From an uncultured Acidimicrobiaceae bacterium (lineage in GTDB: Bacteria; Actinomycetota; Acidimicrobiia; Spongiisociales; ZC4RG35): a stretch of 37,268 bases of DNA. Below are positions 8,425 through 36,271 of the stretch, one piece after another (position 1 is the stretch's first letter; the number at the start of each line of letters is the position of its first letter). Below the pieces are notes generated by a model that saw nothing but the letters and a program-made list of their open reading frames with translations, searched no databases and had not been told where the DNA came from. Position numbers and translations under genes: made by a program. Location of the stretch: the NCBI GenBank assembly GCA_964600055.1, contig CAZRID010000003.1:1-37268 (forward strand). Reading direction: 5' to 3'.

Positions 8425-8465
8425 AAGTCAGCGAAGGGCCACAACGGCCCCGGCGCCCTGCACCC

Positions 8466-8705: not shown

Positions 8706-8784
8706 TGATTGCGAGACCATCATCAGCCAGACCCGGACATCCCTCAGCACCAACGAGCCACGCGGGTCGCTAGCGTCCGGCTCC

Positions 8785-13472: not shown

Positions 13473-13511
13473 TCGTATGAGCGAGAACGCCTCGACACTC
13501 GAGATGCCGCG

Positions 13512-15874: not shown

Positions 15875-15944
15875 GCCGGATTCCCGACGTTGACCGCGCC
15901 ACCCGGGGCTATCTTGATCGGACTGTCCCTGGAGGTTCCCACTG

Positions 15945-20120: not shown

Positions 20121-20909
20121 TCAGGCCCCGATCATGTTGTAGCCACCGTCGGCGATGAGGTAGTTGCCGATCATGTGGGCGGCTTCGTCGGTGGCTAGGA
20201 AGAGGGCGGCGGCGGCCAGGTCTTGCGGTGGTGGGATCCGGCCCGCCGGGGTGGCAGCGATCAGCTTCTCCCTGCGACCTGTGTTCCAGTCTTCTCGGGC
20301 CAGGGTTGCGGCCGTCTCCATAAACCCGGGGGCAAAGGCATTGACCCGCACCGTCGGAGCGAAGGCGTTGGCGTAGGACTTGGTCAGCCCGAGCACTCCG
20401 TACTTCCCGGCGGCGTACTGGGGAGCCCGGGGGCTGCCCCGCACGATCACAGTCGAGCCGATGTTGATGATCGAGCCCGACCCCTGTTCGAGCATGCGGG
20501 TCCCGAACTCGTGATGCATGTAGAGGGTGCCCTTGATGTCGACGTCAAGGACCCGGTCGATGATCTCCTGGGTGATGTCGCGCCACGACATCTGCTCGGT
20601 GGCCACGTCACCCACGTTGTTCACCAGGACGTCGAGACCGCCGAACTCATCGAAGACGCCATCGGCCATGGCCCGCACCGCATCCCATGAGCTGATGTCG
20701 GCCTGGAAGACGGTGGCCTCGCCGCCGATGCCTCTCACCCTGTCGGCGGTGGCCTCCGCCCCGGCCTGAGATCGGTTGTAGTGGACCCCGACCCGGGCTC
20801 CCTCCTGTGCGGCGCGAAAAGCAATCGCACTCCCAAAACCGGTCCCGGCCCCGCTGACAAGGACGCTCTTGCCCTCAAAACGCTTGTAGATGGGGGATTT
20901 CTCTGTCAT
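20121..20909 (-). CDS. Short-chain dehydrogenase/reductase (SDR, FabG-like)
   Basis: ORF track gives 262 aa. Motifs present: VSGAGTGFGSAIA, LVNNVG, and the catalytic YAAGK. Confidence 0.9.
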   Translation of the reverse strand: MTEKSPIYKRFEGKSVLVSGAGTGFGSAIAFRAAQEGARVGVHYNRSQAGAEATADRVRGIGGEATVFQADISSWDAVRAMADGVFDEFGGLDVLVNNVGDVATEQMSWRDITQEIIDRVLDVDIKGTLYMHHEFGTRMLEQGSGSIINIGSTVIVRGSPRAPQYAAGKYGVLGLTKSYANAFAPTVRVNAFAPGFMETAATLAREDWNTGRREKLIAATPAGRIPPPQDLAAAALFLATDEAAHMIGNYLIADGGYNMIGA

Positions 20910-21034: not shown

Positions 21035-22780
21035 TTGCGATCTGAACACCCCTCACGTTTGAGGGTGTTGGCGGTGTTGCTCTGTCTGGCAATGGTCGCG
21101 GCGGCGTGCACGTCGGGCGAGACCGTTGACAGCACGACGACGGCACCGACCGACGACAATGGAGCCACCACGACGGCCGCGCCAGAAGACGGGGAAGGCG
21201 ACGGGGAAGGCGAAGAGGTAACCCGTCTCGTCTTCGGGGTCCCACCACCACCTGACGGTGAGTCGAACAACCCGAATCGTGAGATCCAGCCCAACGACGA
21301 GTATCAGCTCAAGCCGATGTACGAGAACCTGGTCGGGGTCGATCCCGAGAACGCCCAGTGGATCCCGATGCTGGCGGAGAGCTGGGAGCTCAACGAAGCC
21401 GGCGACCAACTCACCTTCCATTTGCGACAGGGAGTCCAGTTCCACAACGACTTCGGTGAGATGACAGCCGAAGACGTCGTCTTCTCGCTGACCGATCTCA
21501 TCGACCCGCCCGGGGCCATCTCCGGGGTGGCCGAAGCAGTGAGGAACGCTGTCGAGGAGTTCGAGATCGTCGACGACTACACGGTGATCTTCCACATCAC
21601 CGAAGGCGGGCTCAGCTTCTCCTTCTTCGAAGGCATCAGCTACGGCGCCGCCGGCACCGCGATCAAGAGCGCAGCGGATTGGGAGTCACGGGGCGGTGGA
21701 TCGCCCGCCTCGCCAACCCTGGACGAGGCCCCGATCGCAGGCACCGGCCCCTATCAGTTCCTCGAGCGGACCCCGGGCCAGAACGTCGTGTTCGAACGGG
21801 TCCCCGACGAGCATTGGCGGCAGGACGCCCAGTTCCAGGAGCTCGAGTACCGGTACATCCCCGAGGAGGCCACGCGGCTCTCCGCCCTCCTGGCGGGTGA
21901 GATCCAAATGACCGATCTCGCCATCGAACTCGGCGACGAGGCCGAGTCCCAGGGGATGGCGGTGATCAAGTCCACCCTGCCGGGCCGTCGCTACGGTCTG
22001 GCCCTGGAGGGGTGCTACTACGTGGAGCCGCCCCAGCCGGGTGCGTTGGCTGCCGACGTGTTCGTCAGCGGAGAGCGAAAGTTCCCGGACAGCCCGTGGT
22101 GCAACGAGGACATCCGTCGTGCTGCCTCGAAGGCCATCGACCGTGACGCCCTGAACGAGGCGTTCTACGGAGGAGAGGCCGAGACCGCGTTCACGTGGTA
22201 TTGGCTGCCGGAGCAGACCGAGTCCTGGAACCCGGACTGGGAGACCAGGTACGCCGAGGAAATCGGGTACGACCCCGAAGGGGCGAGTGCTCTCCTCGAA
22301 GGCGTCGGCGGAGAGGTCAGCATCCAGGTCTTCGCCAAGAACGACCTGAGCGAGGCGGTGGCCGTGATGCTCGAAGACGTCGGCTTCACCGTCGAGTTGG
22401 TCTCCATGGACGACGGCCAGTTCTCATCACAGCGCGAAGCGCGAGAGTTCGACCGGATGGTCGAGTTCGACGACACTGCGAGCGAGAACATCACCGGGTT
22501 CGAGCCGGCCGGCTATGGCAACCAGGACTCTGGTCGTGCCATCGAAACGGTCGAATGGGATACCCAGTACGAGGGAGTGCTGGTCGAGCTGGAGCCGGAG
22601 GCGCAGTCGGCGTTGTGGCTCGAGTTTGGGAATGTCATCTATGACAACATCCCCCAAATCCCGCTGCTCCGCACCTACAGCGAGACCGTGGTCAACCCTG
22701 ACGTGGTCTGTGGCTACCTGAACCCGGGGGCAAACATGAGCGCTCCCTACTCCTTCACCGAGTACATCGAGTCCTGCTGA
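21035..22780 (+). CDS. ABC transporter substrate-binding lipoprotein, family 5 (peptide/opine/nickel type)
   Basis: ORF track gives 581 aa. TTG start with a GAGGAGGAGG RBS 6 nt upstream. Lipobox: LCLAMVAAAC. The SBP_bac_5 hallmark is FHLRQGVQFHNDFGEMTAEDVVFS. Confidence 0.9.
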   Translation: MRSEHPSRLRVLAVLLCLAMVAAACTSGETVDSTTTAPTDDNGATTTAAPEDGEGDGEGEEVTRLVFGVPPPPDGESNNPNREIQPNDEYQLKPMYENLVGVDPENAQWIPMLAESWELNEAGDQLTFHLRQGVQFHNDFGEMTAEDVVFSLTDLIDPPGAISGVAEAVRNAVEEFEIVDDYTVIFHITEGGLSFSFFEGISYGAAGTAIKSAADWESRGGGSPASPTLDEAPIAGTGPYQFLERTPGQNVVFERVPDEHWRQDAQFQELEYRYIPEEATRLSALLAGEIQMTDLAIELGDEAESQGMAVIKSTLPGRRYGLALEGCYYVEPPQPGALAADVFVSGERKFPDSPWCNEDIRRAASKAIDRDALNEAFYGGEAETAFTWYWLPEQTESWNPDWETRYAEEIGYDPEGASALLEGVGGEVSIQVFAKNDLSEAVAVMLEDVGFTVELVSMDDGQFSSQREAREFDRMVEFDDTASENITGFEPAGYGNQDSGRAIETVEWDTQYEGVLVELEPEAQSALWLEFGNVIYDNIPQIPLLRTYSETVVNPDVVCGYLNPGANMSAPYSFTEYIESC

Positions 22781-22876: not shown

Positions 22877-24190
22877 TTGCCGTCCGAACAGCCGGAGTGG
22901 CGTAAGAGCCTGCGCAAGAGACCTGCTCCCCTTCTCGAAGAGCCGGTCGCCATCAACACCGAGTTCGTCGCCCACACCCGGGTCGAAGGCCGGGCCGACG
23001 GGATCCAGCTCCAGTTCCAGACCGTCGGCGATCATCACTATCTGTACGTCGGCCACATCTGGTCCGGCGGGGTGAGCATCCTCGATGTGACCAATCCCGC
23101 CGACCCCCAGGTCGCCGCCTTCATCCCGGCCCCCAACGAGAGCACCAAGCACACCAAGGTCCAGGTGGCCGACGGCATCGCCATGATCGGTTGTGAGGCC
23201 CCGATGTTCGACCCACGGCCCGACCCGACCAAGGCCTGGCTCGGGGTCAGATTCTTCGATGTTTCGGATCCGACCGATCCCAAGGACCTCTCGTTTTGGG
23301 CCTCGGACCGGCCCGGCTTCGGGGTTCACCGCTCGTGGTGGAACGGTGGTCGTTACGCCTTCCTCTCCCACGGCGTGGCGGCCGAGGGCTTCATGTACGC
23401 CGGGCGTCCCGACCGCACCCGGATCATGACCACGCTCGACATCTCCGACCCGGAGAATCCGAAGCGGGTCTCCGACTTCTGGCTCCCGGTGCAGCGTGGC
23501 GAGGGCCGTCAGCCGGGGCCGGGGGAGACATTCGGGGTCCACGAGCCGGTGATCCACGGCGACCGGGCATATATCGCATACGCCGACGGTGGGTTCGCCA
23601 TCGCCGACATCTCCGACATCGAGAACCCGACCCTTGTCACCCACCAGTGGATCTTCCCCGAGCTGACCGACGGTCAGACCCACACGTGTGTCCCCTGGCC
23701 GGATCGTGACCTCCTAGTGGTCTCGGACGAGGCCATGGCCACGTTCGGTCTTGAAGGCGAGAAGAACATCATGATGTGGGATATCGCCGAGGAGACCGAT
23801 CCCAAGCTGCTATCGATGCTACCGATCCCGACCCCGACCGAGGACGAGCCATACGAGAGCTACTTCCACAAGGGTGAGCGCTTCGGCCCCCACGGGCTTC
23901 ACGACAACCACCAGGGGACGGCTCAGATCACCGACAAGGTGTACAACGCATATATGAACGCCGGTCTCCGGGTGTGGGACGTGTCCGACCCTTCCAACCC
24001 TGAGGAAACCGCATCCTTTGTTCCGGCTGATCCCACCGAGCAGGTCGATCCGAGACCGTACAACCGGATCGCCGACCCGTTGCGCGGCGGAACCCGCAAG
24101 GCCTGCAACCAGGACGTGGTCGTCGATCCACGTGGGTACATCTACCTGAGCGGCTACAACGACGGGATCTGGATCGTCAAGGAGAGTTGA
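22877..24190 (+). CDS. LVIVD-repeat beta-propeller protein A (no signal peptide; function unknown)
   Basis: ORF track gives 437 aa. TTG start with an AGGAGG RBS 9 nt upstream. It has about seven repeats of the type h-h-h-D-(V/I)-(S/T)-D-P-x-x-P: VSILDVTNPADP, VRFFDVSDPTDP, TTLDISDPENP, AIADISDIENP, MMWDIAEETDP, RVWDVSDPSNP. Confidence 0.85.
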   Translation: MPSEQPEWRKSLRKRPAPLLEEPVAINTEFVAHTRVEGRADGIQLQFQTVGDHHYLYVGHIWSGGVSILDVTNPADPQVAAFIPAPNESTKHTKVQVADGIAMIGCEAPMFDPRPDPTKAWLGVRFFDVSDPTDPKDLSFWASDRPGFGVHRSWWNGGRYAFLSHGVAAEGFMYAGRPDRTRIMTTLDISDPENPKRVSDFWLPVQRGEGRQPGPGETFGVHEPVIHGDRAYIAYADGGFAIADISDIENPTLVTHQWIFPELTDGQTHTCVPWPDRDLLVVSDEAMATFGLEGEKNIMMWDIAEETDPKLLSMLPIPTPTEDEPYESYFHKGERFGPHGLHDNHQGTAQITDKVYNAYMNAGLRVWDVSDPSNPEETASFVPADPTEQVDPRPYNRIADPLRGGTRKACNQDVVVDPRGYIYLSGYNDGIWIVKES

Positions 24191-24198
24191 CTCCCGGG

Positions 24199-24972
24199 AT
24201 GAACCAGCATTCGCCGGCCGAGACTGGTGTAGTCCTGGTCACCGGGGCTAGGAGAGGGATTGGCCGGGCGGTGGCCGAGCGGTTCCTGGTCGAGGGGTGG
24301 CAGGTGGCACTCAACGATGTCGACGGCGATGGACTCGGCGCCACATTCGAATCTCTCCTCGGCGATGGGCCATTGGTGAGCGCCCATCAGGCCGACGTCG
24401 GCGACCGGGCACAGGTGGAGAGGATGATCGAGGAGGTTCTCGAGGAGCACGGGCGTCTCGATGTCCTGGTGAACAACGCCGGGGCGATCCGGTTCTCCCC
24501 CTTCACCGAATACACCACGGCGGATTTCGAGTTGTCGGTGCGGACCAACCTGTTGGGGACCTTTCACTGCACACAGGCGACATCAAACCGGTGGATCACG
24601 TTGGGTGCCCCCGGCAGCATCATCAACATCTCCTCGGTGTCGGGGCGTCAGGCGCGTCCGGGGCACGTGGCATATGGGGCGAGCAAGGCGGGTGTGGAGA
24701 TGTTGTCCAAGGTGGCAGCCATGGAATTGGCGCCCTATGGGATCAGGGTCAACTGCGTCGCGCCGGGTGGGCCGATCATGACCGAGTTCGTCCAGCCTCT
24801 AGCCGAGAGACCCGGATTTCAGGAGCGGGTCCGGGCCACGGTCCCGATGGGCAGGACCGGTGAGCCCGAAGAGGTGGCCGGGGTGGTGTTCTTCCTCGCC
24901 TCCAAGGAGGCGTCATACATGACGGGGGCCGTCGTGGTGGTCGATGGTGGCGTCACACTGGGCCGTCCATGA
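24199..24972 (+). CDS. Short-chain dehydrogenase/reductase (SDR)
   Basis: The track ORF begins at TTG 24187, overlapping the upstream stop. I prefer ATG 24199, which has an AGGAGA RBS 13 nt upstream. Motifs present: VTGARRGIGRAV, LVNNAG, and the catalytic YGASK. Confidence 0.9.
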   Translation: MNQHSPAETGVVLVTGARRGIGRAVAERFLVEGWQVALNDVDGDGLGATFESLLGDGPLVSAHQADVGDRAQVERMIEEVLEEHGRLDVLVNNAGAIRFSPFTEYTTADFELSVRTNLLGTFHCTQATSNRWITLGAPGSIINISSVSGRQARPGHVAYGASKAGVEMLSKVAAMELAPYGIRVNCVAPGGPIMTEFVQPLAERPGFQERVRATVPMGRTGEPEEVAGVVFFLASKEASYMTGAVVVVDGGVTLGRP

Positions 24973-25062: not shown

Positions 25063-26421
25063 ATGGCTGAGAAGCAACCGGAGTGGAAGAGCTGGATACG
25101 GCGGCGAGCGGCCACTCCCCTCCTTGAGCCCGTCGCCACCAACGTCGACATCGTCGGTTTCACCGGCATGGAAGGGCGTCTGGACGGACAGCAGCTCCAG
25201 TTCCAGACCGTGGGCGATCATCACTATCTCTACGTCGGTCATCCGTGGTCAGGGGGTGTGAGCGTCATCGACGTCACATCGCCCAAGGACCCCCAGGTGG
25301 CCGCCTTCATCCCCGCTCCCAACGAGCACACCTGGCACATCAAGATCCAGGTGGCCGACAACATCCTCATGACCTCATGTGAGGTCGCATTCTTCAAGCC
25401 CGGAGTTGATGCCTCCCAGGCCTGGGCCGGTGTCCGATTCTTCGATGTATCGGATCCAACCCAGCCCCGGGAGCTGTCACATTGGTCGGGCTCCGAACCC
25501 ACCGACTACGGGGTGCACCGCAGTTGGTGGAACGGCGGCCGCTACGCCTACCTTTCCAACATGATCGATGCCCCGGGCGTGAGCTATCACTGGCGCAAGG
25601 GCAGGACCCGGGTGATGACCATCCTGGATGTGTCCGATCCGGAGAGCCCCAAGCGCGTCTCCGATTTCTGGCATCCGGTGCAACTCGGTGAGGAGCCCGC
25701 GGCCCTGCCCGATGAGACGTTCGGCGTTCACTTCCCTCTGGTGGAGGGCAACCGTGCCTATGTCGCGTACTCGGATGGCGGCTTTGGCATCGTGGATGTC
25801 TCGGATCCCGAACATGCCACCCTGATCAGTCACGTGCGGACCTTCCCGGATCTCACCGACGGGCAGACACACACCTGTGTCCCTCTCACCGACCGCGGAA
25901 TCCTGGTGGTCTGCGAGGAGCCGATGGCCAACTACGGTCTCGAGGGACCGAAGAACATCCGGCTCTGGGATATCTCCGACGAGACCAACCCCACCGAGAT
26001 TTCGACCCTCCCCATTCCCGACCCCACCGATCGGGAGCCCTATCCCAGCTACTACCACAAGGGCGAGAGGTTCGGCCCCCACAACATGCACGAGAACCAT
26101 CAGGGAACCAAGCAGATCACCGACAAGGTCTACAACGCATATTTCAACGCAGGATTGAGGGTTTTCGACATCTCAGACCCGGCCCGTCCCGTTGAGACCG
26201 CATCATTCGTCCCCCCGACGCCGACGGAGTGGGTGGACCCACGCCCGTTCATGAGGATCTTCGACGTGATCCACGGTGGCGTGCGCGATGTCTGCAGCCA
26301 GGACGTCTTGGTCGACCCTCGCGGCTACATCTACCTGAGCGGTCTCAACGACGGGATTTGGATACTCGAGGAGACGAACTCAGCCGCCAACAACCCTGCT
26401 GGCTCGTCGAATGACGGCTGA
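25063..26421 (+). CDS. LVIVD-repeat beta-propeller protein B (close paralog of A; no signal peptide)
   Basis: ORF track gives 452 aa. It is collinear with A from the N-terminus (M-x-E-x-QPEW...QLQFQTVGDHHYLYVGH) to the C-terminus (VDPRGYIYLSG-x-NDGIWI), and by eye about two thirds of residues are identical. Confidence 0.85.
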   Translation: MAEKQPEWKSWIRRRAATPLLEPVATNVDIVGFTGMEGRLDGQQLQFQTVGDHHYLYVGHPWSGGVSVIDVTSPKDPQVAAFIPAPNEHTWHIKIQVADNILMTSCEVAFFKPGVDASQAWAGVRFFDVSDPTQPRELSHWSGSEPTDYGVHRSWWNGGRYAYLSNMIDAPGVSYHWRKGRTRVMTILDVSDPESPKRVSDFWHPVQLGEEPAALPDETFGVHFPLVEGNRAYVAYSDGGFGIVDVSDPEHATLISHVRTFPDLTDGQTHTCVPLTDRGILVVCEEPMANYGLEGPKNIRLWDISDETNPTEISTLPIPDPTDREPYPSYYHKGERFGPHNMHENHQGTKQITDKVYNAYFNAGLRVFDISDPARPVETASFVPPTPTEWVDPRPFMRIFDVIHGGVRDVCSQDVLVDPRGYIYLSGLNDGIWILEETNSAANNPAGSSNDG

Positions 26422-26448: not shown

Positions 26449-28716
26449 ATGACCCAACTCGGGGCTCCTTTGCCCAGACTGGAGGATGGGCCGCTCGTCA
26501 CCGGAAAAGGCTCCTTCATCGCCGACCTCATCGATGAAGAGACCCTGCATTGTGCCTTTGTCAGGAGCCCGGTTGCCCACGGGACATTCGACCCTCCCCC
26601 GCTCGAGGACGCCATCGGTATGCCGGGGGTCGTGGCGGTCTTCAGCGCCGACACCCTCGATCTCCCCGACCTGCCATCCTCCCCGGGTCGGGGAGCACCG
26701 GAGGCCACCGGCATGGGCCAGCCGGCGTTGGCCCGTGGTCGGGTGCGCCATGTCGGTGACCCGATCGCCGTAGTCGTTGCCGAGACAGCACGACAGGCGG
26801 TCGATGCGGCCGACCAGATTTGGGTCGACATCGATCTCCTACCTGTGGTCGCCGACGTCGCCACTGCGTTGCAAGACGAGACGCTCCTGTTCCCGGAGGT
26901 CGGGACCAACCTGGTCCACGAGGCAACCGTGAGCAGCCCGGGCCCGGCCCCGAGCAGCACCCACGAAGCAGAGATCGAGGTCGATATCCCCCGGGTCTCC
27001 CCGGTCACCATCGAGCCCTTGGCGATCCTGGTGCGACCGAATGCGGACGGTCTCGATGTCTGGTGCGGGCACCAGGCGCCGCAGCGACTCCCCAATCTGC
27101 TGGGTGGGATCCTGGGCTTGCCCCCATCCATGATCAGGGCGCGAGTACCGGATGTGGGCGGGGCTTTCGGCACCAAGGGGCAGTTCTACGCCGAGTATCC
27201 GACCGTCACTATGGTCGCCCATCGCCTGGGCCGGCCGGTGGTCTGGATCCAGACACGACGCGAACAGCTCCTCTCCGGCACCCACGGCAGATCACAGCGG
27301 ATCCGGGTCCGGCTGGGCGGCGACTCCGACGGCCGGATCATGAGCGCCAAGATCGACATCGTCGGAGATGTCGGCGCCTATCCCAACACCGGCTCCAGAA
27401 TCCCCTTCTTCACCCAGTTCGTCGCCCAAGGTGCATACGACATCGGGCATCTCGAGGTTCACGCAGCTGCCTACGTGACCAACAAGGCACCCACCGGGCC
27501 GTATCGCGGCGCGGGCCGTCCCGAAGCCGCGATCGCAATCGAGAGAGCGGTCGACGCCTTCGCATTTGAGGTCGGGCTGAAGCCCGAAGCGGTAAGACGC
27601 AAGAATTTCGTCTCATCGTCCCAGATGCCGTTCACCTCCCAAACCGGGGCGGTGTATGACTCCGGTGACTACCTGGCAGCCATGGAGTTGGCCCTGGAGA
27701 CCGCAGACATCGAGCGTTGGCGGGCGGAACAGGCGGAGCGGCGGCGACGTGGTGAGAACCCTCTGGGCATCGGCATCGGCTCTTTCATCGAGCGGGCCGG
27801 CGGGGGAGGCGAATACGGGAAAGTCGAGCTGTTACGTGACGGCACCGTGGTGGTGAGGACAGGCTCCACCGCCGCCGGGCAGAGCCATCGCACCGTTTGG
27901 TCCCAGCTCGCAGCCAGCGTCTTCACGGTCCCCATCGACCGCGTCACCTTCTATGCCGGGGACACCTACGAGGTGGCAGGGGGCACCGGTAGCTTCGGCA
28001 GCCGGTCGACCCAGCTCGGGGCCTCGGCGATCTTCCGAACCGCTCACGAGGTCGTCGACCGGGCAAGGAAGGTGGCCGCGGAGGCACTGGAGGCGGCGGA
28101 AGCAGACCTGGAACTGGTCGACGGCTGCTTCAGGGTCGTCGGCTCCCCTGGTTCTGAGATCTCCCTGGCCGCTGTCGCCAAGCGGGCGGCAGAGTCCAAT
28201 ATCGATCTCACCGCCGAGGAGATGTTCGACCCGGATGCGATGACGTTTCCTTACGGCACTTACGTGGCGGTGGTCGAGGTCGAGATGGAGACCGGTGAGA
28301 TCAACCTGCTCGACCTGGTTGCCGTGGACGACTGTGGCAACGTCCTCAACTCGATGGTGGTCGAAGGCCAGCTGCACGGCTCGATCATGCAGGGGATCGG
28401 AACCTCCCTGCTCGAGGCCGTGGTCTACGACGAGGACGGGCAGCCGCTCACATCGAACCTGATGAGCTATCTGATCCCGACCTCGACCCAACCGTTCCCT
28501 CTTCAATCGAGACGTCTTGTCCACCCGGCGCCATCCAACCCGCTCGGGGCAAAGGGGACCGGTGAGGCCGGCTGCATCGGTGTCCCGCCCGCCATCCTCA
28601 ACGCCGTGCACGACGCCTTGCGGGAGCACGGGGTCACCTCGATCAGCTTTCCCCTCACCGCGGCCCGGGTGTGGGAGGCAATCCGCAGCGCACAACAAGG
28701 GGAAGCCAGCCAATGA
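26449..28716 (+). CDS. Xanthine dehydrogenase/CoxL-family molybdopterin-binding large subunit
   Basis: ORF track gives 755 aa. Motifs present: LPRLEDGPLVTGKG, VGGAFGTKG, GPYRGAGRPEA, GAKGTGEAG (catalytic Glu context). Confidence 0.92.
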   Translation: MTQLGAPLPRLEDGPLVTGKGSFIADLIDEETLHCAFVRSPVAHGTFDPPPLEDAIGMPGVVAVFSADTLDLPDLPSSPGRGAPEATGMGQPALARGRVRHVGDPIAVVVAETARQAVDAADQIWVDIDLLPVVADVATALQDETLLFPEVGTNLVHEATVSSPGPAPSSTHEAEIEVDIPRVSPVTIEPLAILVRPNADGLDVWCGHQAPQRLPNLLGGILGLPPSMIRARVPDVGGAFGTKGQFYAEYPTVTMVAHRLGRPVVWIQTRREQLLSGTHGRSQRIRVRLGGDSDGRIMSAKIDIVGDVGAYPNTGSRIPFFTQFVAQGAYDIGHLEVHAAAYVTNKAPTGPYRGAGRPEAAIAIERAVDAFAFEVGLKPEAVRRKNFVSSSQMPFTSQTGAVYDSGDYLAAMELALETADIERWRAEQAERRRRGENPLGIGIGSFIERAGGGGEYGKVELLRDGTVVVRTGSTAAGQSHRTVWSQLAASVFTVPIDRVTFYAGDTYEVAGGTGSFGSRSTQLGASAIFRTAHEVVDRARKVAAEALEAAEADLELVDGCFRVVGSPGSEISLAAVAKRAAESNIDLTAEEMFDPDAMTFPYGTYVAVVEVEMETGEINLLDLVAVDDCGNVLNSMVVEGQLHGSIMQGIGTSLLEAVVYDEDGQPLTSNLMSYLIPTSTQPFPLQSRRLVHPAPSNPLGAKGTGEAGCIGVPPAILNAVHDALREHGVTSISFPLTAARVWEAIRSAQQGEASQ

Positions 28717-29717
28717 CCTACGACGTCCACGCCCACATCGTGCCGGTTGAGCTGATGGAATTGCTGCGCTTCGACGGGCCCGGATTCGGGTTGGAGGTCT
28801 TCGAGACCTCAGACGGCAAGGAGAAGATCAAGATCGCAGGTCGACTCGAGATCGGGCCCTTTCCCGACAATCTCTTCGATCTCGATGCCAGATTTGCGGC
28901 CATGGACCAGGGCGGGGTCGAGGTCCAACTGGTTGGCCACCGCACCGAGCTCAGTGCATATGCCCTGGAAGGCGAGAGGGGTGCCGCCTATGCACGGGCC
29001 TTCAATCGAATCCTTGCCGACGAGGTTTCGAGGCAGCCGGACCGGTTGCTCGCCCTGGGGACTGTTCCGCTCCAGGATCCCAAGCGCGCCGCCGAGGAGC
29101 TGGCATATGCAGTGCAGGACCTGGGGATGGTCGGCGTGGAGATCGCGTCCAACATCGACGGTGTGCCACTGGACCAGGCGGGGTTGGATCCCTTCTGGGA
29201 GACGGCCAATGAGCTCCGCTGCTTCGTCTTGTTGCATCCCAACGATCCGCTGCGCGGAGTCGACCTGAGTCGCTACTTCATGGACAACATGGTGGGCCGG
29301 CCGGCGGAGTCGACGGTGGCCATCGCCTACCTCCTCTTCAGCGGCGTGTTGGAGCGATACCCGGACTTGGTGGTATCCATGGTGCACGGCGGTGGGTACA
29401 TGCCCTATCAGCTCGGTCGCTGGGAGAAGGCATACAGGGTCGTCCCCCACATCGCCGGGAAGAACATCACGATGCCTCCGATCGAATACGTGAAGCGCCT
29501 TTACTTCGACAGTCTGGTTCACATCCCCCAGACCCTCTCCTACCTGTTGGAGCTGGTGGGGCCATCCCAAGTGCTGGTGGGCACCGACTATCCCTACGAG
29601 ATGGCCGAACGCTCGCCGGTGGCTTTCATCGACTCGGTCCCCGGTCTCGGGGCAGACGATCGTCACGCCATCCTGGAGGGCAACATTCGCCGCATCATCG
29701 ACGGGATTCGTCGATGA
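28713..29717 (+). CDS. Amidohydrolase_2 (ACMSD/LigW/IDCase-type metal-dependent decarboxylase or hydrolase)
   Basis: I moved the start to ATG 28713 (MTYDVHAHIVP), which overlaps the Mo-subunit stop (ATGA). It has the HxH metal motif DVHAHI, plus HGGG and GTDYPYE. Confidence 0.85.
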   Translation: MTYDVHAHIVPVELMELLRFDGPGFGLEVFETSDGKEKIKIAGRLEIGPFPDNLFDLDARFAAMDQGGVEVQLVGHRTELSAYALEGERGAAYARAFNRILADEVSRQPDRLLALGTVPLQDPKRAAEELAYAVQDLGMVGVEIASNIDGVPLDQAGLDPFWETANELRCFVLLHPNDPLRGVDLSRYFMDNMVGRPAESTVAIAYLLFSGVLERYPDLVVSMVHGGGYMPYQLGRWEKAYRVVPHIAGKNITMPPIEYVKRLYFDSLVHIPQTLSYLLELVGPSQVLVGTDYPYEMAERSPVAFIDSVPGLGADDRHAILEGNIRRIIDGIRR

Positions 29718-30901
29718 CAGCCCGGCCCACAACCGAGACCGATGCCCATCGGATGACGGTTGTCGGCCATATCGACCTCGACGGCAAGGGCGACGGTATG
29801 CACGTGAACGTGGTCGACGGGGTGGCCTACATGGGTCACATGGGTTACAACGACTTGGGGACCTCGATCATCGACGTCTCCGACCCTGCCCGCCCCAGCC
29901 TCATCACGCAGATCCAGAGACCGGAGGGAACCCATTCCCACAAGGTGCAGGTGATCGGGGACATCCTGCTCGTCAACCACGAGCGGAACCGCTTCGAGAA
30001 GGAGCCCCCGGGGAGCTGGAGTGCCGGTCTTGCCGTCTACGACGTGTCCGACCCGGCACATCCCAACCAGATCGGCTTCTACCCCACTCCAGGCGTGGGA
30101 GTGCACCGGATGACCTGGTGGGACGGTCCGTTTGCGTACGTAGCCGGCACCGATGAAGGCTATCGGGGGCGCTTCCTCCACATCGTCGATCTCTCCGATC
30201 CGACCCAACCAACTGCGGTGGGGCGTTGGTGGTACCCGGGCCAGCATGTAGGCGGTGGAGAGGAGCCTTCATGGACCGTGGGCAAGGAGCCAGGTCCGGG
30301 GGACGAGGGGCGGGAGTACGCCCTGCACCACGCCCTTCCCTATGGCGACCGCCTCTACGCCGGGTACTGGGATGCAGGTCTCGTGATCCTCGACACAAGC
30401 GACAAAGCCAACCCCAAGCTGGTGAGTCGGCTCACCTTTGGTCCCGAGAGCCGTAACACCCACACCGCGTTTCGTCTCCCGGGAAGGGACATCGTCCTCG
30501 TCACCGACGAGCAACTGACCCGGTGGATCGGTGTCCAGCGTCACGTTTGGGTGGTCGACGTCTCCGATGAGGCCAACCCGCAGCTGATCTCCAGGCTTCC
30601 GGTCCCTCACGGGGAGCGACACGCCGAGGGCGTGCGCTGGGGCCCGCACAACCTCCACGAGATGAGACCGGGGTCATTCGCGGACCCCAACCTGGTCTTT
30701 CTCACCTATTTCGGTGGTGGTCTCCGCGCCTATGACCTGACCGACCCTGTCAACCCGGTCGAGGCCGCGTATTTGGTGCCCCCAGCCCCAACAGGGAGGG
30801 ATTCGATCCAGTTCAACGACGTGACTGCCACCAAGGACGGGCTGGTGTACGTCAGCGATCGTCACGGCAACGGTCTCTACATCGTGGACCCGGGCCTGTG
30901 A
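29714..30901 (+). CDS. LVIVD-repeat beta-propeller protein C (divergent paralog of A and B; no signal peptide)
   Basis: ORF track gives 395 aa. There is an ATGA overlap with the amidohydrolase stop. Repeats present: SIIDVSDPARP, AVYDVSDPAHP, HIVDLSDPTQP, VILDTSDKANP, WVVDVSDEANP, RAYDLTDPVNP. Confidence 0.85.
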   Translation: MTARPTTETDAHRMTVVGHIDLDGKGDGMHVNVVDGVAYMGHMGYNDLGTSIIDVSDPARPSLITQIQRPEGTHSHKVQVIGDILLVNHERNRFEKEPPGSWSAGLAVYDVSDPAHPNQIGFYPTPGVGVHRMTWWDGPFAYVAGTDEGYRGRFLHIVDLSDPTQPTAVGRWWYPGQHVGGGEEPSWTVGKEPGPGDEGREYALHHALPYGDRLYAGYWDAGLVILDTSDKANPKLVSRLTFGPESRNTHTAFRLPGRDIVLVTDEQLTRWIGVQRHVWVVDVSDEANPQLISRLPVPHGERHAEGVRWGPHNLHEMRPGSFADPNLVFLTYFGGGLRAYDLTDPVNPVEAAYLVPPAPTGRDSIQFNDVTATKDGLVYVSDRHGNGLYIVDPGL

Positions 30902-30933: not shown

Positions 30934-31869
30934 ATGGCCCGCTACATCCTGATCAACACGGTGCGAGGCCTGCTCACCCTGTTCGCGGTGTCGATACTGG
31001 TGTTCTTCCTGGCCCGTCTCACCGGGGATCCCCTCGATGTGTTGGCGCCCGTCGACATGAGCCGGGAGGACGAGGAAGCGCTGCGTGCGAAGTGGGGTCT
31101 CGATCAGCCGTTGCCGCAGCAGTACATCGCGTTCCTGGGCAACGCGATGCAAGGGGAGTTCGGCCCGTCGTTCAAGTACCCCACCGAGACCGCCGGATCG
31201 GTTGTCCTCGACCGGTTGCCCAATTCGATAAAGCTCGGCGCGGTGGCAACGATCCTGACGCTCGTGATCGGAGTCCCCTTGGGCATTCTGTCCGCAGTCA
31301 AACGAGGATCCCTGGTTGATCGCGTCGCCAGGGGATTTGCCCTCTTCGGGCAGTCGGTCCCCGAGTTCTGGCTGGCGATCATCCTCATCTGGTTTGTTGC
31401 GGTGCGTTGGCACGTCGTCCCCACCTCCGGGATCACCGGATGGAAGAGCTACATCCTGCCCAGCATCGTCATATCCATCTTCGGCATCGCCGCACTGCTC
31501 CGTCTCTTCCGATCGGCGATGCTCGAGACGATGGGTAGTGAGTATGTGAAGCTCGCCCGGCTCAAGGGTTTGTCCGAGTCCAAGGTCGTTTGGAAGCATG
31601 CCTTGAAGCCGGCCTCGATCGCCCCGCTCACCTTCTTCGGCGGGATCGTGGTCCGCATGATCACCGGGGCCACGGTGGTCGAGATCGTTTTCTCATGGCC
31701 GGGCGCCGGCCTGCTCGCCTACGAAGCCGCCAACGCCAGAGATTTCCCGGTGGTCCAGGCGCTGGCATTGTTCACCGCGGCGGCGATCGTCATCATGAAT
31801 CTGCTGATCGACATCACCTATGCCTACCTGGACCCTCGGGTTCGCCTCGGGCAAAAGGCAGTCAGTTGA
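30934..31869 (+). CDS. ABC transporter permease (DppB/OppB-like)
   Basis: ORF track gives 311 aa. N-terminus: MARYILINTVRGLLTLFAVSILVFFL. The EAA-loop region is EYVKLARLKGLSESKVVWKHALKPA. Confidence 0.9.
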   Translation: MARYILINTVRGLLTLFAVSILVFFLARLTGDPLDVLAPVDMSREDEEALRAKWGLDQPLPQQYIAFLGNAMQGEFGPSFKYPTETAGSVVLDRLPNSIKLGAVATILTLVIGVPLGILSAVKRGSLVDRVARGFALFGQSVPEFWLAIILIWFVAVRWHVVPTSGITGWKSYILPSIVISIFGIAALLRLFRSAMLETMGSEYVKLARLKGLSESKVVWKHALKPASIAPLTFFGGIVVRMITGATVVEIVFSWPGAGLLAYEAANARDFPVVQALALFTAAAIVIMNLLIDITYAYLDPRVRLGQKAVS

Positions 31870-32813
31870 TGTCGCTGCGCAACCCGCCACGACCCGCTGG
31901 CGACTTCACGGGGGCGAACGAGACCCAACTCGACGAGTTCGGCCAGCCGAAGCGGCGGAGCCCGTGGCGTTGGGGACGCCGATCGAATCGCCTCCCATGG
32001 GTGTCGATCTTCATCGTCGTGGTGGTTCTGATCCTGCCCGCACTTTTCGCCGACCTGATCACCAGTCACGACCCGTTGCGTGGTGTGCTGGCAGATCGTC
32101 TCATCCCCCCGGCGTGGTCAGACGGCGGATCGCTCACATATCCGCTGGGCACCGACAAGCAGGGCCGTGACATCCTGACCAGGATGATCTACGGGGCAAG
32201 GATCTCGCTCACGGTTTCGAGTCTGACCATCCTCATCGGGGCGGTTGTCGGTTCCACGCTCGGTCTGCTTGCCGGGTACTACGGGGGTTGGATCGACCGG
32301 ACCGTGAGCTGGCTCATCGACACGTTTCTCTCACTGCCGCACGTCCTTCTCGCTCTGGTCATCGTTGCCGCGATCGGCCCATCCTTCGTGACAATCATCG
32401 CAATCATCGCCGTCACCATCTGGGCAAGCTTCGCCCGGCAGGTTCGTGGGGAGACCCTCAGCGTCAGGGAGACCGAGTACGTGGCCAGGGCCAGGGTTGC
32501 AGGAGCATCGTCGTGGCGGATACTCCTGCGTCATGTCCTGCCCAACGTGGCCAACACTCTCATCGTCCTGGCCACGCTCCAGGTTGGGGTGGTGATCCTG
32601 GAGGAGTCGTCTCTGAGCTTCATCGGCGCCGGGATCCCACGGCCAAACCCGAGCTGGGGCGTCATGGTCGCCGACGGCCGGGATCAGATCCTCACCGCGT
32701 GGTGGATCTCCTTCTTCCCCGGACTGGCCATCCTGCTCGTTGTGCTGTCCCTGAACCTGATGGGTGATTGGCTGCGTGACTTCCTCGACCCCAAGATGAG
32801 ACAGAGGCAATGA
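31869..32813 (+). CDS. ABC transporter permease (DppC/OppC-like)
   Basis: This is in frame within track ORF 31590..32813. ATG 31869 overlaps the upstream TGA by 1 nt. Motifs present: PLGTDKQGRDILTRMIYGAR and EYVARARVAGASSWRILLRHVLPN. Confidence 0.88.
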   Translation: MSLRNPPRPAGDFTGANETQLDEFGQPKRRSPWRWGRRSNRLPWVSIFIVVVVLILPALFADLITSHDPLRGVLADRLIPPAWSDGGSLTYPLGTDKQGRDILTRMIYGARISLTVSSLTILIGAVVGSTLGLLAGYYGGWIDRTVSWLIDTFLSLPHVLLALVIVAAIGPSFVTIIAIIAVTIWASFARQVRGETLSVRETEYVARARVAGASSWRILLRHVLPNVANTLIVLATLQVGVVILEESSLSFIGAGIPRPNPSWGVMVADGRDQILTAWWISFFPGLAILLVVLSLNLMGDWLRDFLDPKMRQRQ

Positions 32814-34869: not shown

Positions 34870-34890
34870 TAGCGATTGAGGGGATCCTCC

Positions 34891-36093: not shown

Positions 36094-36271
36094 CCAGGAC
36101 AACCGGAGACCGTGGCGCTTCCAGCCCGGGTCCCGGGATGTGCGCCCCCTATCATGACGGAGTCCCGAATGGTGTGCACTCTCGGGGTCTCCGTTGGCAC
36201 ATCCTCGGGCCGGTACACATGCCTATCGCGGTTTTGCCACGCGAGCACCGCCAACGAACGAGGAGAGTCTG

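What the first reader, a model, noticed from the sequence alone, without database searches (positions are those of the whole stretch)
22877..24190. A set of histidines conserved across all three LVIVD propellers suggests a metal centre
Seen: A (22877-24190) and B (25063-26421) are close paralogs. C (29714-30901) is much more divergent, by eye about one third identical.

The same His-containing motifs survive in all three, in the same order:
- H-x-K-(V/I)-QV: TKHTKVQV, TWHIKIQV, HSHKVQV.
- GVHR-x-x-WW-x-G: GVHRSWWNGG, GVHRSWWNGG, GVHRMTWWDG.
- THT: QTHTCVP, QTHTCVP, NTHTAFR.
- GPH-x-(L/M)H(D/E): GPHGLHD, GPHNMHE, GPHNLHE.

Established knowledge: several beta-propeller enzymes place catalytic metals on histidines at the propeller hub. 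Examples are the nitrous-oxide reductase CuZ domain and selenium-binding-protein/methanethiol-oxidase-type propellers.

Inference: these proteins are metalloenzymes rather than structural repeat proteins. The H(R/H)S-x-WN-like motif loosely recalls the SBP56 family, but I cannot establish homology by eye.
Basis: partly seen in the sequence, partly recalled or inferred. Interest (0 to 1): 0.7.

Follow-up and report, generated by a model that had tools for sequence, protein, structure and literature searches.

The report
Propeller enzymes with a histidine metal site
Three genes annotated only as "LVIVD repeat" proteins are most likely cytoplasmic metal-dependent enzymes, because the few residues that never vary in their large uncharacterised family match the manganese ligands of the one solved relative, the Sphingobium phosphotriesterase Sb-PTE.

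Summary
The three ORFs and all the quoted motifs are present. A and B are 66% identical and C is about 35% identical to them.

Among the three paralogues alone, histidine conservation is no better than chance (P=0.16). Wider alignments make it significant. In 65 diverse relatives only six columns are invariant: H222, H269, E285, H339, P195 and G363. H151 is kept in 64 of 65.

Both AlphaFold models are confident seven-bladed propellers. The conserved residues sit at the top-face ends of the inner strands of blades 3 to 6.

The only solved relative is Sb-PTE, a phosphotriesterase (5HRM; profile E=1.6e-24; Foldseek E about 1e-17). Its binuclear Mn ligands His258, His317, His389, Glu407 and His475 align with the invariant set. 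The bridging Glu201 has only a candidate counterpart, E88.

SBP56/MtoX and NosZ are not specific relatives.

The proteins lack signal peptides. They sit in a translationally coupled catabolic operon that is conserved in related genomes. Across phyla the recurring partner is a short-chain dehydrogenase (SDR).

The metal-centre idea is supported. Substrate, metal and number of metals are unknown. I could not measure 3D distances.

The parts
22877..24190 (+). Paralogue A, 437 aa, a single seven-bladed LVIVD propeller with a TTG start and no signal peptide
   Evidence: ORF. Pfam LVIVD 49.3 bits against a cut-off of 20.2. AF2 pLDDT 93, pTM 0.93, 7 blades. Foldseek top hit 5HRM, E=2e-17.
25063..26421 (+). 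Paralogue B, 452 aa, 66% identical to A
   Evidence: LVIVD 63.7 bits. Carries the same residue set: H152, H223, H270, E286, H340, H343.
29714..30901 (+). Paralogue C, 395 aa, about 35% identical to A and B
   Evidence: LVIVD 82.4 bits. AF2 pLDDT 93.2. Foldseek top hit 5HRM, E=4.5e-17, TM 0.70. Residues H131, H205, H250, E266, H312, H315.
23327..23329 (+). Codon for H151 of A (GVHR; B H152 at 25516-25518; C H131 at 30104-30106). Proposed beta-metal ligand, equivalent to Sb-PTE His258.
   Evidence: His in 69/69, 116/117 and 64/65 homologues. Aligned to His258. Third residue of strand A of blade 3.
23540..23542 (+). Codon for H222 of A (B H223 at 25729-25731; C H205 at 30326-30328). Proposed beta-metal ligand, equivalent to Sb-PTE His317.
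   Evidence: Invariant in all alignments. hhalign pairs it with His317. Lies immediately before strand A of blade 4.
23681..23683 (+). Codon for H269 of A (THT; B H270 at 25870-25872; C H250 at 30461-30463). Proposed alpha-metal ligand, equivalent to Sb-PTE His389.
   Evidence: Invariant. Aligned to His389 in every alignment. Second residue of strand A of blade 5.
23729..23731 (+). Codon for E285 of A (B E286 at 25918-25920; C E266 at 30509-30511). Proposed alpha-metal carboxylate, equivalent to Sb-PTE Glu407.
   Evidence: Invariant: 69/69, 116/117, 65/65. First residue after strand B of blade 5. Alignments place Glu407 within 1-3 positions of it. Exact pairing needs a 2-residue loop gap, which is my inference.
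23891..23902 (+). Codons H339-G-L-H342 of A (GPHxxH; B H340/H343 at 26080-26091; C H312/H315 at 30647-30658). Blade-6 ligand, equivalent to Sb-PTE His475.
   Evidence: H339 is invariant. H342 is 59/69, 109/117 and 37/65. HMMER with the diverse profile pairs H339 with His475. hhalign and the shallower profile pair H342 with His475. Unresolved.
23054..23056 (+). Codon for H60 of A (VGH; B H60 at 25240-25242; C H42 at 29837-29839). Subfamily-level extra hub His at the end of strand B of blade 1.
   Evidence: 65/69, 103/117 and 40/65. Aligns with Thr in Sb-PTE.
23138..23152 (+). Blade-2 loop E88-S-T-K-H92 of A (B 25324-25338; C E71...S75 at 29924-29938). E88 is a candidate counterpart of the bridging Glu201.
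   Evidence: Glu201 aligns to position 89 or 90. An acidic residue two before T90 is present in A, B, C and 70/117 close homologues, but only 13/65 diverse ones. H92 is not conserved.
23195..23197 (+). Codon for E107 of A (B 25381-25383; C E90 at 29981-29983). Semi-conserved carboxylate at the end of strand B of blade 2.
   Evidence: 67/69, 107/117 and 37/65. Position taken from DSSP.
20121..20909 (-). Divergent SDR oxidoreductase
   Evidence: Pfam adh_short_C2, E=1e-47. Conserved in syntenic clusters.
21035..22780 (+). ABC substrate-binding protein, family 5 (peptide/opine/nickel type)
   Evidence: Pfam SBP_bac_5, E=6e-52. Closest solved proteins are DppA, AccA and AgaA, E<=1e-12.
24187..24972 (+). 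SDR oxidoreductase whose start overlaps the stop of A (TTGA)
   Evidence: Pfam E=3e-67. NCBIfam 'glucose 1-dehydrogenase' subfamily, 231 bits against a cut-off of 215. Overlap shown.
26449..28716 (+). Xanthine-dehydrogenase/CODH-family molybdopterin large subunit, with no partner subunits nearby
   Evidence: Pfam MoCoBD_1/2 and Ald_Xan_dh_C. NCBIfam hits are all below cut-off.
28713..29717 (+). ACMSD-like Amidohydro_2 decarboxylase. ATGA overlaps with the Mo subunit upstream and with C downstream.
   Evidence: Pfam. E=1e-53 to human ACMSD 4IGN over the full length. Overlaps shown.
30934..34812 (+). Two ABC permeases (30934-31869 and about 31869-32813) and two oligo_HPY ATPases (32810-33850 and about 33850-34812)
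   Evidence: Pfam. Junction sequences.
34876..36093 (+). HMGL-like (isopropylmalate/citramalate/homocitrate-synthase-like) enzyme
   Evidence: Pfam HMGL-like, E=9e-63. NCBIfam hits are below cut-offs.
36194..36982 (+). GntR/FCD transcriptional regulator closing the cluster
   Evidence: Pfam GntR + FCD. Found in the same position in L001.

Best explanation
A, B and C are cytoplasmic, single-domain, seven-bladed beta-propeller metalloenzymes. They are distant homologues (about 18% identity) of Sb-PTE, the Sphingobium sp. TCM1 phosphotriesterase (haloalkylphosphorus hydrolase, PDB 5HRM).

Proposed site (inferred):
- A metal site sits at the top of the central channel.
- It is built from one residue at the start of the innermost strand of each of blades 3, 4, 5 and 6 (H151, H222, H269, H339 in A).
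- It also uses a glutamate at the end of strand B of blade 5 (E285).
- In this subfamily the site is supplemented by H342, H60, E107 and possibly E88.

Proposed mechanism (inferred by homology): the site binds one or two divalent cations (Mn2+ in Sb-PTE). These polarise a substrate carbonyl or phosphoryl group and activate water or hydroxide for hydrolysis of an ester, lactone, amide or similar bond in a small molecule.

Proposed role (inferred from context): the substrate or its precursor is imported by the adjacent ABC transporter. It is processed together with short-chain dehydrogenases (SDRs), an ACMSD-like decarboxylase, a molybdenum hydroxylase subunit and an HMGL-like enzyme.

Shown:
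- the fold;
- homology to Sb-PTE;
- conservation of the residue set;
- its topological placement;
- the operon context.

Inferred:
- metal binding;
- number and identity of metals;
- hydrolytic chemistry;
- substrate.
For: 1. Conservation.
- H151, H222, H269, H339 and E285 are kept in 69/69 homologues and 116/117 from 87 genomes of many phyla.
- They are kept in 64-65 of 65 diverse cluster representatives, where only 6 columns are invariant at all. The enrichment has P=6e-4 to 3e-5.

2. Homology to a known metalloenzyme.
- The profile against PDB finds only Sb-PTE: E=6.6e-17 and 1.6e-24 with the more diverse profile, covering the whole domain.
- hhalign gives probability 98.5-99.3%, E=1e-15 to 4e-20.
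- Foldseek gives 5HRM first for both A and C (E about 1e-17, TM 0.65-0.70). The next hits are generic WD40 propellers at about 1e-9.

3. Ligand mapping.
- H151 pairs with His258, H222 with His317, H269 with His389, E285 with Glu407, and H339 or H342 with His475.
- The Sb-PTE ligand list comes from my recollection of the abstract of Mabanglo et al., Biochemistry 2016, 55:3963.
- The recollection was cross-checked. All six recalled ligand numbers and five recalled disulfide cysteines fall on the right residue types in 5IOJ numbering.

4. Geometry by topology.
- In both AF2 models (pLDDT 93) the four His are at residues 0-3 of strand A of blades 3-6.
- E285, E107 and H60 are at the ends of B strands.
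- In any propeller these ends lie on the top face next to the axis.

5. Not a property of the repeat itself.
- In 705 repeat matches from 45 giant LVIVD proteins, the H151 position is His in 14% and the H60 position never.
- Those matches hardly ever reach blades 5-6.

6. Enzyme-like context.
- There is no signal peptide.
- 4-nt start/stop overlaps link A to an SDR and link the Mo subunit, the ACMSD-like gene and C.
- The whole cluster is conserved in related genomes.
- An SDR gene lies within the flanks of about half of 87 loci, usually directly adjacent to the propeller gene.
- Enterobacterial homologues close a sugar-type ABC operon beside an SDR and an Fe-ADH.
- An LVIVD protein (cadB1) is listed among the enzymes of the chloranilic-acid degradation cluster (PMC13191619).
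Against: - No coordinates were available, so His-His distances were not measured. The clustering is inferred.
- The bridging carboxylate of Sb-PTE (Glu201) is not conserved at its aligned position. E88 is only a candidate, one or two residues out of register, and is absent from most diverse relatives. A strictly Sb-PTE-like binuclear site is therefore uncertain.
- The blade-6 ligand assignment differs between alignment methods (against 74).
- E285 to Glu407 needs a small manual gap adjustment.
- Identity to Sb-PTE is only 17-18%. The disulfide cysteines and the secretion signal of Sb-PTE are absent.
- No biochemical data exist for any member. Four His plus one carboxylate could equally hold a redox-active Fe or Cu.
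- The gene context does not identify the reaction.
Confidence: 0.72

Rival explanations
1. Mononuclear redox metalloenzyme. The four invariant His (with E285 in the first or second shell) hold a single Fe(II) or Cu at the propeller axis. The enzyme then acts as an oxygenase or oxidase, as in the 4-His Fe(II) centre of carotenoid/stilbene cleavage oxygenases, and not as a hydrolase.
For: - The universally conserved core is exactly 4 His + 1 Glu, while the Sb-PTE bridging carboxylate is not conserved.
- Some relatives lie beside LigB extradiol dioxygenase, cupins, UbiD and DHDPS genes, and beside an FAD monooxygenase in the cad cluster.
- The window cluster contains an ACMSD-like decarboxylase and a Mo hydroxylase subunit, both typical of aromatic or N-heterocycle catabolism.
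- That carotenoid cleavage oxygenases are seven-bladed propellers with an axial 4-His iron is established knowledge, from my memory.
Against: - The only demonstrable homologue is a hydrolase with a binuclear Mn site.
- There is no Pfam RPE65 hit at E<=1.
- No cleavage oxygenase appears in the Foldseek top 50 for A or C.
- A, B and C themselves keep extra hub residues (H60, H342, E88, E107), which fit more than one metal.
Confidence: 0.15
2. SBP56/MtoX-type enzyme (methanethiol oxidase or selenium-binding-protein family), or a NosZ CuZ-like copper propeller.
For: - Weak sub-threshold hits: Pfam SBP56 E=0.017-0.038, NCBIfam MtoX E=8e-6 to 0.03.
- The SBP56 structure 2ECE appears in the Foldseek list for C (rank 36, E=1.7e-7).
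Against: - Scores are far below the curated cut-offs: 13-14 against 34 bits, and 13-25 against 650 bits. They cover only one repeat of 20-55 residues.
- Profile searches of PDB at E<=10 find no SBP56, MtoX or NosZ.
- 2ECE scores ten orders of magnitude worse than Sb-PTE and level with WD40 proteins. It is not in the top 50 for A.
Confidence: 0.03
3. Non-catalytic LVIVD repeat protein (binding, scaffold or adhesion), as the current annotation and the literature on LVIVD repeats imply. On this view the conserved His and Glu are structural.
For: - The only family above threshold is the LVIVD repeat.
- The literature treats LVIVD as a cell-surface repeat (PMC2447325; bioRxiv 10.1101/2022.05.06.490989).
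- Thousands of giant multi-repeat LVIVD proteins match the profile.
Against: - There is no signal peptide or anchor.
- The architecture is a single closed propeller.
- The invariant residues are polar metal-ligand types placed at the hub, and they coincide with catalytic ligands of Sb-PTE.
- Giant LVIVD proteins lack them.
- The genes are translationally coupled inside a catabolic operon.
Confidence: 0.05
4. True orthologues of Sb-PTE, that is, organophosphate triesterases used for phosphorus acquisition or xenobiotic degradation.
For: - Best and only solved homologue, with most ligands conserved.
- The cluster regulator's best NCBIfam hit is a phosphonate-utilisation regulator, but at 95 bits against a cut-off of 271.
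Against: - Identity is 17-18%.
- There is no signal peptide, whereas Sb-PTE is a 583-aa protein with disulfide bonds (bioRxiv 10.64898/2026.02.02.703255).
- The disulfide cysteines are not conserved.
- Glu201 is not conserved in register.
- There are three paralogues in a carbon-catabolic operon with no phosphatase or diesterase genes.
- The family is present in at least 569 species genomes across many phyla. Sb-PTE-type phosphotriesterases are reported only from Sphingomonadaceae (PMC13611039).
Confidence: 0.05

Closest known systems
Sb-PTE / haloalkylphosphorus hydrolase of Sphingobium sp. TCM1 (PDB 5HRM, 5IOJ)
   Same: - Seven-bladed beta-propeller.
- Homologous over the whole domain: profile E=1.6e-24, hhalign probability 99.3%, Foldseek E about 1e-17 with TM 0.65-0.70.
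- The family-invariant H151, H222, H269, E285 and H339 (or H342) align with Mn ligands His258, His317, His389, Glu407 and His475.
- The LVIVD-type C-D strand motif (xLRVxDxSDPxxP) is shared.
   Different: - Only 17-18% identical.
- The window proteins are about 150 residues shorter and have no signal peptide.
- The Sb-PTE disulfide cysteines are not conserved.
- The bridging Glu201 is not conserved in register; E88 is only a candidate.
- Extra conserved hub residues are present (a second blade-6 His, H60, E107).
- The genomic setting is carbon catabolism with SDRs and ABC uptake, not organophosphate utilisation.
- The taxonomic range is very wide, against Sphingomonadaceae only for Sb-PTE.
LVIVD repeat proteins (Pfam PF08309) as originally described: cell-surface multi-repeat proteins of archaea and bacteria
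   Same: Above-threshold LVIVD repeats (49-82 bits). The same blade motif is present.
   Different: - Single closed propeller of about 400-450 aa, cytoplasmic, in operons with enzymes.
- Carries an invariant His4-Glu set that the giant repeat proteins lack.
SBP56 / methanethiol oxidase MtoX (Pfam PF05694; PDB 2ECE)
   Same: Seven-bladed propeller. Weak similarity limited to one blade motif.
   Different: - Far below the family cut-offs.
- 2ECE scores no better than WD40 propellers.
- No ligand correspondence was shown.
Carotenoid/stilbene cleavage oxygenases (RPE65 family): seven-bladed propellers with an axial 4-His Fe(II). The description is from my own knowledge.
   Same: Architectural analogy: four invariant His, one per blade, at the top of the propeller axis, with conserved Glu nearby.
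   Different: - No detectable sequence or preferential structural similarity.
- The His come from consecutive blades 3-6 here.
- The demonstrable homologue is a hydrolase.
Six-bladed Ca2+/Zn2+ propeller lactonases and phosphotriesterases (PON1, SMP30/gluconolactonase, DFPase). The description is from my own knowledge.
   Same: - Hub metal on the top face of a propeller that activates water.
- Lactonase and phosphotriesterase activities are linked in these enzymes.
- They pair with sugar dehydrogenases in oxidative sugar pathways. This resembles the SDR adjacency seen here.
   Different: Six blades, carboxylate/Asn-rich Ca2+ sites and not His-rich sites, and no homology detected here.

Membership tests
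LVIVD repeat (Pfam PF08309) | Score above Pfam's gathering cut-off (20.2 bits) | tested here: met
   A 49.3, B 63.7, C 82.4 bits.
LVIVD repeat (Pfam PF08309) | Cell-surface, multi-repeat architecture as in the original description | tested here: not met
   No hydrophobic N-terminal leader in A, B or C. Single closed seven-bladed propeller. The genes sit in an operon with cytoplasmic enzymes.
Sb-PTE-type propeller metallohydrolase (5HRM) | Seven-bladed beta-propeller fold | tested here: met
   AF2 models of A and C: pLDDT 93, 7 x 4 strands. Foldseek top hit 5HRM, E=2e-17 and 4.5e-17, TM 0.65-0.70.
Sb-PTE-type propeller metallohydrolase (5HRM) | Significant sequence homology across the whole catalytic domain | tested here: met
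   hmmsearch E=6.6e-17 and 1.6e-24, profile positions 17-404 of 406. hhalign probability 98.5-99.3%.
Sb-PTE-type propeller metallohydrolase (5HRM) | Non-bridging metal ligands His258, His317 (beta) and His389, Glu407, His475 (alpha) | tested here: met
   They align with H151, H222, H269, E285 and H339/H342, which are invariant or near-invariant in the family. The blade-6 register (H339 or H342) and the exact E285 register are ambiguous. The ligand list is from memory and was cross-checked against the sequence.
Sb-PTE-type propeller metallohydrolase (5HRM) | Bridging carboxylate Glu201 | tested here: inconclusive
   The aligned position is S89 or T90 in A, and N/G/H in the family. E88 lies one or two residues away in A, B, C and 70/117 close homologues, but only 13/65 diverse ones.
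Sb-PTE-type propeller metallohydrolase (5HRM) | Secreted protein with three disulfide bonds | tested here: not met
   No signal peptide. Cys242, 411, 443 and 559 align with non-Cys residues. Only Cys542 aligns with C410, which has no partner.
Sb-PTE-type propeller metallohydrolase (5HRM) | Bound Mn2+ pair and organophosphate triesterase activity | not testable with these tools
   Needs ICP-MS and enzyme assays.
SBP56 / methanethiol oxidase | Pfam PF05694 at or above 34 bits, or NCBIfam MtoX at or above 650 bits | tested here: not met
   13.2-14.4 bits and 12.9-24.5 bits, on short single-blade stretches.
SBP56 / methanethiol oxidase | Preferential structural similarity to an SBP56 structure | tested here: not met
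   2ECE is absent from the top 50 for A. It ranks 36th, E=1.7e-7, for C, among WD40 hits. It is not found by profile search at E<=10.
NosZ CuZ-domain propeller | Detectable sequence or structural relationship to NosZ | tested here: not met
   No NosZ in the PDB profile search at E<=10 or in the Foldseek top 50 for A or C.
Carotenoid cleavage oxygenase (RPE65, PF03055) | Family HMM match or preferential structural match | tested here: not met
   No Pfam hit at E<=1. None in the Foldseek top 50. Functional analogy is not excluded.

The most novel reading that the evidence does not exclude
The ~400-aa LVIVD propellers are a very large, essentially unstudied family of cytoplasmic metalloenzymes, with thousands of 50%-identity clusters in at least 569 species genomes from Actinomycetota to Proteobacteria, Chloroflexota, Nitrospinota and Thaumarchaeota. 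Their conserved His4-Glu hub site may carry out a reaction not yet assigned to any propeller, for example ring hydrolysis or oxygenation of an N-heterocyclic, aromatic or sugar-derived intermediate made by the partner SDR. They would then be the natural stock from which the xenobiotic-degrading Sb-PTE was recently recruited. Loss of the bridging carboxylate would mean that the ancestral site is not the classical binuclear hydrolase centre.
Probability: 0.25. Interest if true: 0.7.

Novelty: new variant of a known kind. Interest (0 to 1): 0.5.

Why it matters
- It re-labels a widespread "LVIVD repeat / hypothetical" family, usually read as surface or adhesion repeats, as probable metalloenzymes. 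Members include the Klebsiella pneumoniae gene VK055_1911 and plasmid genes of Rahnella, Erwinia and Sinorhizobium.
- It names the residues to mutate.
- It gives Sb-PTE an evolutionary hinterland. Sb-PTE has so far been reported only from Sphingomonadaceae (PMC13611039).
- The conserved partnership with SDRs, ABC importers and ACMSD-like or Mo enzymes points to catabolic steps that are not yet annotated.
- The substrate-binding protein and the GntR/FCD regulator in the window are practical handles for finding the substrate.
- The work is incremental and not categorical. The fold and the type of site are already known from one solved enzyme.

Tried and rejected
- **Measuring His-His distances.** The model coordinates are not exposed to the sandbox. 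I used DSSP strand positions and homology instead.
- **Finding the Sb-PTE structure paper in the library.** It is not held. The ligand list is from memory, cross-checked by residue numbering.
- **SBP56/MtoX and NosZ leads.** Rejected.
- **Statistics on the three paralogues alone.** Not significant.
- **Motif 1 (H-x-K-V-Q-V) as a ligand motif.** Rejected for the His. Q96 of that motif is fairly conserved.
- **Exact function from neighbours.** NCBIfam gives only sub-threshold or generic names: glucose-1-dehydrogenase-like SDR, glyceraldehyde-DH-like Mo subunit, IPMS-like HMGL. Neighbour-family counts give SDR, PF04199 cyclase/formamidase-like, ABC, Mo enzyme and GntR. No single pathway emerges. 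The crude longest-ORF gene calling used for those counts is noisy in high-GC DNA.
- **Testing whether cadB1 of the chloranilic-acid cluster is in this exact family.** Its sequence was not retrievable.
- **Plasmid search.** It gave cultured-organism homologues but no functional annotation.


Full report
**1. Observation**

The three ORFs are as stated: A 22877-24190 (437 aa), B 25063-26421 (452 aa) and C 29714-30901 (395 aa), all on the + strand. A and B are 66% identical. C is 36% identical to A and 34% to B. All quoted motif strings are present.

Histidines invariant among the three (A numbering) are H60, H151, H222, H269, H339 and H342. H92 of motif 1 aligns with Ser in C, which has His one position either side.

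With only three sequences this is not more than chance. Six of 15 His are invariant against 113 of 437 columns overall, P=0.16.

**2. Wider family**

A protein search found 958 relatives at E<=1e-5. All are unnamed or called "LVIVD repeat-containing". The closest (94%) is from an Acidimicrobiia MAG.

| Alignment | H151, H222, H269, H339 | E285 | H60 | H342 | H92 |
|---|---|---|---|---|---|
| 69 homologues | 69/69 each | 69/69 | 65/69 | 59/69 | 38/69 |
| 117 sequences from 87 genomic loci, many phyla | 116/117 each | 116/117 | 103/117 | 109/117 | 28/117 |
| 65 diverse 50%-cluster representatives (26-41% identical to A) | H151 64/65; other three 65/65 | 65/65 | 40/65 | 37/65 | 4/65 |

In the diverse set only six columns are invariant: P195, H222, H269, E285, H339 and G363. 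The His enrichment has P=0.005 in the 69-sequence set, and 6e-4 to 3e-5 in the diverse set.

The real conserved core is therefore His4-Glu.

**3. Structure**

AlphaFold2 models of A (pLDDT 93.0, pTM 0.93) and C (pLDDT 93.2, pTM 0.92) are seven-bladed propellers. DSSP places the residues as follows.

| Residue (A) | Position |
|---|---|
| H151 | residue 3 of strand A, blade 3 |
| H222 | immediately before strand A, blade 4 |
| H269 | residue 2 of strand A, blade 5 |
| H339 | residue 3 of strand A, blade 6 |
| E285 | first residue after strand B, blade 5 |
| E107 | last residue of strand B, blade 2 |
| H60 | last residue of strand B, blade 1 |

C shows the same pattern (H131, H205, H250, H312, E266).

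In propellers the start of strand A and the end of strand B are on the top face next to the axis. This is established fold knowledge. The set is therefore expected to ring the mouth of the central channel.

I could not measure distances, because the coordinates are not exposed.

**4. Relatives with solved structures**

By sequence:
- phmmer already hinted at 5HRM/5IOJ, "haloalkylphosphorus hydrolase", which is Sb-PTE.
- Family profiles give E=6.6e-17 and 1.6e-24 over the whole domain.
- Nothing else relevant appears up to E=10. There is no SBP56, MtoX or NosZ.
- hhalign gives 98.5-99.3% probability.

By structure:
- Foldseek puts 5HRM first for A (E=2e-17, TM 0.65) and for C (E=4.5e-17, TM 0.70).
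- The next hits are generic WD40 and designed propellers at about 1e-9.
- The SBP56 structure 2ECE appears only for C, at rank 36, E=1.7e-7.
- Pfam SBP56 and NCBIfam MtoX scores are far below their cut-offs.

**5. Ligand mapping**

The ligand list for Sb-PTE comes from my recollection of the abstract of Mabanglo et al. 2016 (Biochemistry 55:3963):
- Sb-PTE has a binuclear Mn centre at the top of the propeller core.
- Glu201 and a water bridge the two ions.
- His389, His475 and Glu407 bind the alpha ion.
- His317 and His258 bind the beta ion.

The paper is not in the library. However, all six numbers, and the five recalled disulfide cysteines within range, fall on the correct residue types in 5IOJ numbering.

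| Window residue (A) | Sb-PTE ligand | Support |
|---|---|---|
| H151 | His258 | |
| H222 | His317 | hhalign; supported by HE...(G)DRxY flanks |
| H269 | His389 | all alignments |
| E285 | Glu407 | within 1-3 residues; exact pairing needs a 2-residue loop gap (my inference from strand register) |
| H339 | His475 | HMMER with the diverse profile, |
| H342 | His475 | alternative pairing, |
| position 89 or 90 | Glu201 | N/G/H/S in the family |

A, B and C have E88 (E71 in C) one or two residues before the position aligned with Glu201. So do 70 of 117 close homologues, but only 13 of 65 diverse ones.

Five of the six ligands are therefore the family's invariant residues. The bridge is uncertain.

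**6. The set is not a property of the LVIVD repeat itself**

The profile also hits 41,715 cluster representatives at E<=1e-3, including giant multi-repeat proteins.

In 705 repeat matches from 45 such giants:
- the H151 position is His in 14%;
- the H60 position is never His;
- the matches almost never extend into blades 5-6.

**7. Context**

A, B and C have no signal peptide, although some relatives do. The cluster reads as follows.

| Gene | Strand | Note |
|---|---|---|
| SDR | - | divergent |
| family-5 substrate-binding protein (SBP) | + | closest solved: DppA, AccA, AgaA |
| A | + | |
| SDR | + | glucose-1-dehydrogenase-like subfamily |
| B | + | |
| Mo-hydroxylase large subunit | + | no partner subunits nearby |
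| ACMSD-like decarboxylase | + | E=1e-53 to human ACMSD |
| C | + | |
| two permeases | + | |
| two ATPases | + | |
| HMGL-like enzyme | + | |
| GntR/FCD regulator | + | |

Four-nucleotide start/stop overlaps join A to the SDR, the Mo subunit to the decarboxylase, the decarboxylase to C, and the second permease to the first ATPase.

Conservation of the context:
- The whole cluster recurs in related Acidimicrobiia and Actinomycetota genomes.
- Across 87 loci from many phyla the recurrent partner is an SDR, found in about 43 loci and usually directly adjacent.
- 24 loci carry at least two paralogues.
- Other frequent neighbours are PF04199 cyclase/formamidase-like proteins, ABC or MFS transporters, Mo enzymes, GntR regulators, Amidohydro_2 and HpcH/DHDPS-type aldolases.
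- In Klebsiella pneumoniae, Rahnella and Erwinia the homologue (37-39% identical to C, all core residues kept) closes a sugar-type ABC operon. In K. pneumoniae that operon is divergent from an SDR and an Fe-ADH (PMC5566837).
- An LVIVD protein, cadB1, is listed among the enzymes of the chloranilic-acid degradation cluster, next to a pyrone-dicarboxylate hydrolase and a DHDPS-family protein. Its function is uncharacterised (PMC13191619).

**8. Interpretation**

The best reading is a cytoplasmic propeller metalloenzyme with an Sb-PTE-type hub site. By homology it most probably acts as a hydrolase on a small catabolic intermediate linked to SDR chemistry, such as a lactone, ester or amide.

My confidence in a metal site is high, about 0.8. 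My confidence in hydrolytic binuclear chemistry is moderate, about 0.5. The substrate is unknown.

The main rival is a mononuclear His4 redox centre, analogous to carotenoid cleavage oxygenases. It is favoured by the missing bridge and by the aromatic or N-heterocycle flavour of some contexts. It has no homology support.

SBP56/MtoX, NosZ, true phosphotriesterase orthology and a purely structural role are each disfavoured.

**9. Novelty**

The fold and the site type are known from one enzyme. In the literature held here, no paper links the LVIVD single-propeller family to that site. Sb-PTE-type enzymes are described as confined to Sphingomonadaceae (PMC13611039).

I rate this a new variant of a known kind, of moderate interest.

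Noticed in passing
window 379-3835 (- strand): Three tandem paralogous multi-pass membrane proteins (377, 378 and 403 aa) have no Pfam match. They share a nearly identical C-terminal ~130 aa (…LRYRLYEIDRxISRTV…FNPVRKRVQxWVDRRFNRSRYDAQRVMDRFAGSLRD…SETMQP…). The region has an unusually strong AT skew (0.24-0.32). A BTAD-AAA-TPR regulator follows at 4046-6820.
   Followed up: no
window 26449-28716: A xanthine-dehydrogenase/CODH-family molybdopterin large subunit stands alone. No FAD-binding or 2Fe-2S subunit gene was identified among the cluster genes scanned. This arrangement is conserved in the syntenic clusters. Its best NCBIfam model is glyceraldehyde dehydrogenase alpha, at 525 bits against a cut-off of 790.
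   Followed up: partly
window 24187, 28713, 29714, 32810: There are four-nucleotide start/stop overlaps: TTGA at the A/SDR junction, and ATGA at the Mo-subunit/decarboxylase, decarboxylase/C and permease/ATPase junctions. These indicate translational coupling. The Amidohydro_2 gene most likely starts at ATG 28713 and not at the GTG at 28671 listed by the ORF finder.
   Followed up: yes
window 28713-29717: The Amidohydro_2 protein is a close full-length relative of 2-amino-3-carboxymuconate-6-semialdehyde decarboxylase (E=1e-53 to human ACMSD 4IGN). No other kynurenine or 3-hydroxyanthranilate pathway gene was identified among the window genes scanned.
   Followed up: partly
L007, L026, L029, L033, L035, L036, L038, L040, L041, L048, L049, L054 (around 6200-10000 in most of these loci): A second, very conserved layout recurs in Nitrospinota and several unclassified MAGs. 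It reads SDR(+), SDR(-), LVIVD(+). In L007 a PF04199 'putative cyclase' (kynurenine-formamidase-like) gene follows, and PF04199 was the most common downstream neighbour overall (10 of 74). A third layout, LVIVD(+), small ORF(-), SDR(-), occurs in Deltaproteobacteria, Binatia and Verrucomicrobiia.
   Followed up: partly
L089 9001-10242 (Klebsiella pneumoniae, WP_002894038.1 / VK055_1911); L088 8983-10230 (Rahnella aceris): Cultured enterobacteria carry a homologue that keeps every core residue. It is the last gene of a sugar-type ABC operon. In K. pneumoniae the operon is divergent from an SDR and an Fe-ADH-type oxidoreductase. This gives a tractable genetic system for the family.
   Followed up: partly
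proteins P0124, P0130, P0135, P0139, P0153, P0160, P0176, P0179, P0186, P0187 and others: A subset of the ~450-aa family members have hydrophobic N-terminal leaders that look like signal peptides. The family therefore has both exported and cytoplasmic branches. Sb-PTE belongs with the exported kind.
   Followed up: no
window 12342-17750: Upstream of the cluster lies a separate group of amine/peptide-processing genes: peptidase S58 (DmpA-like), a class-III aminotransferase, a histone-deacetylase-family amidohydrolase and an S9 prolyl-oligopeptidase-family protein. Any link to the propeller cluster was not examined.
   Followed up: no
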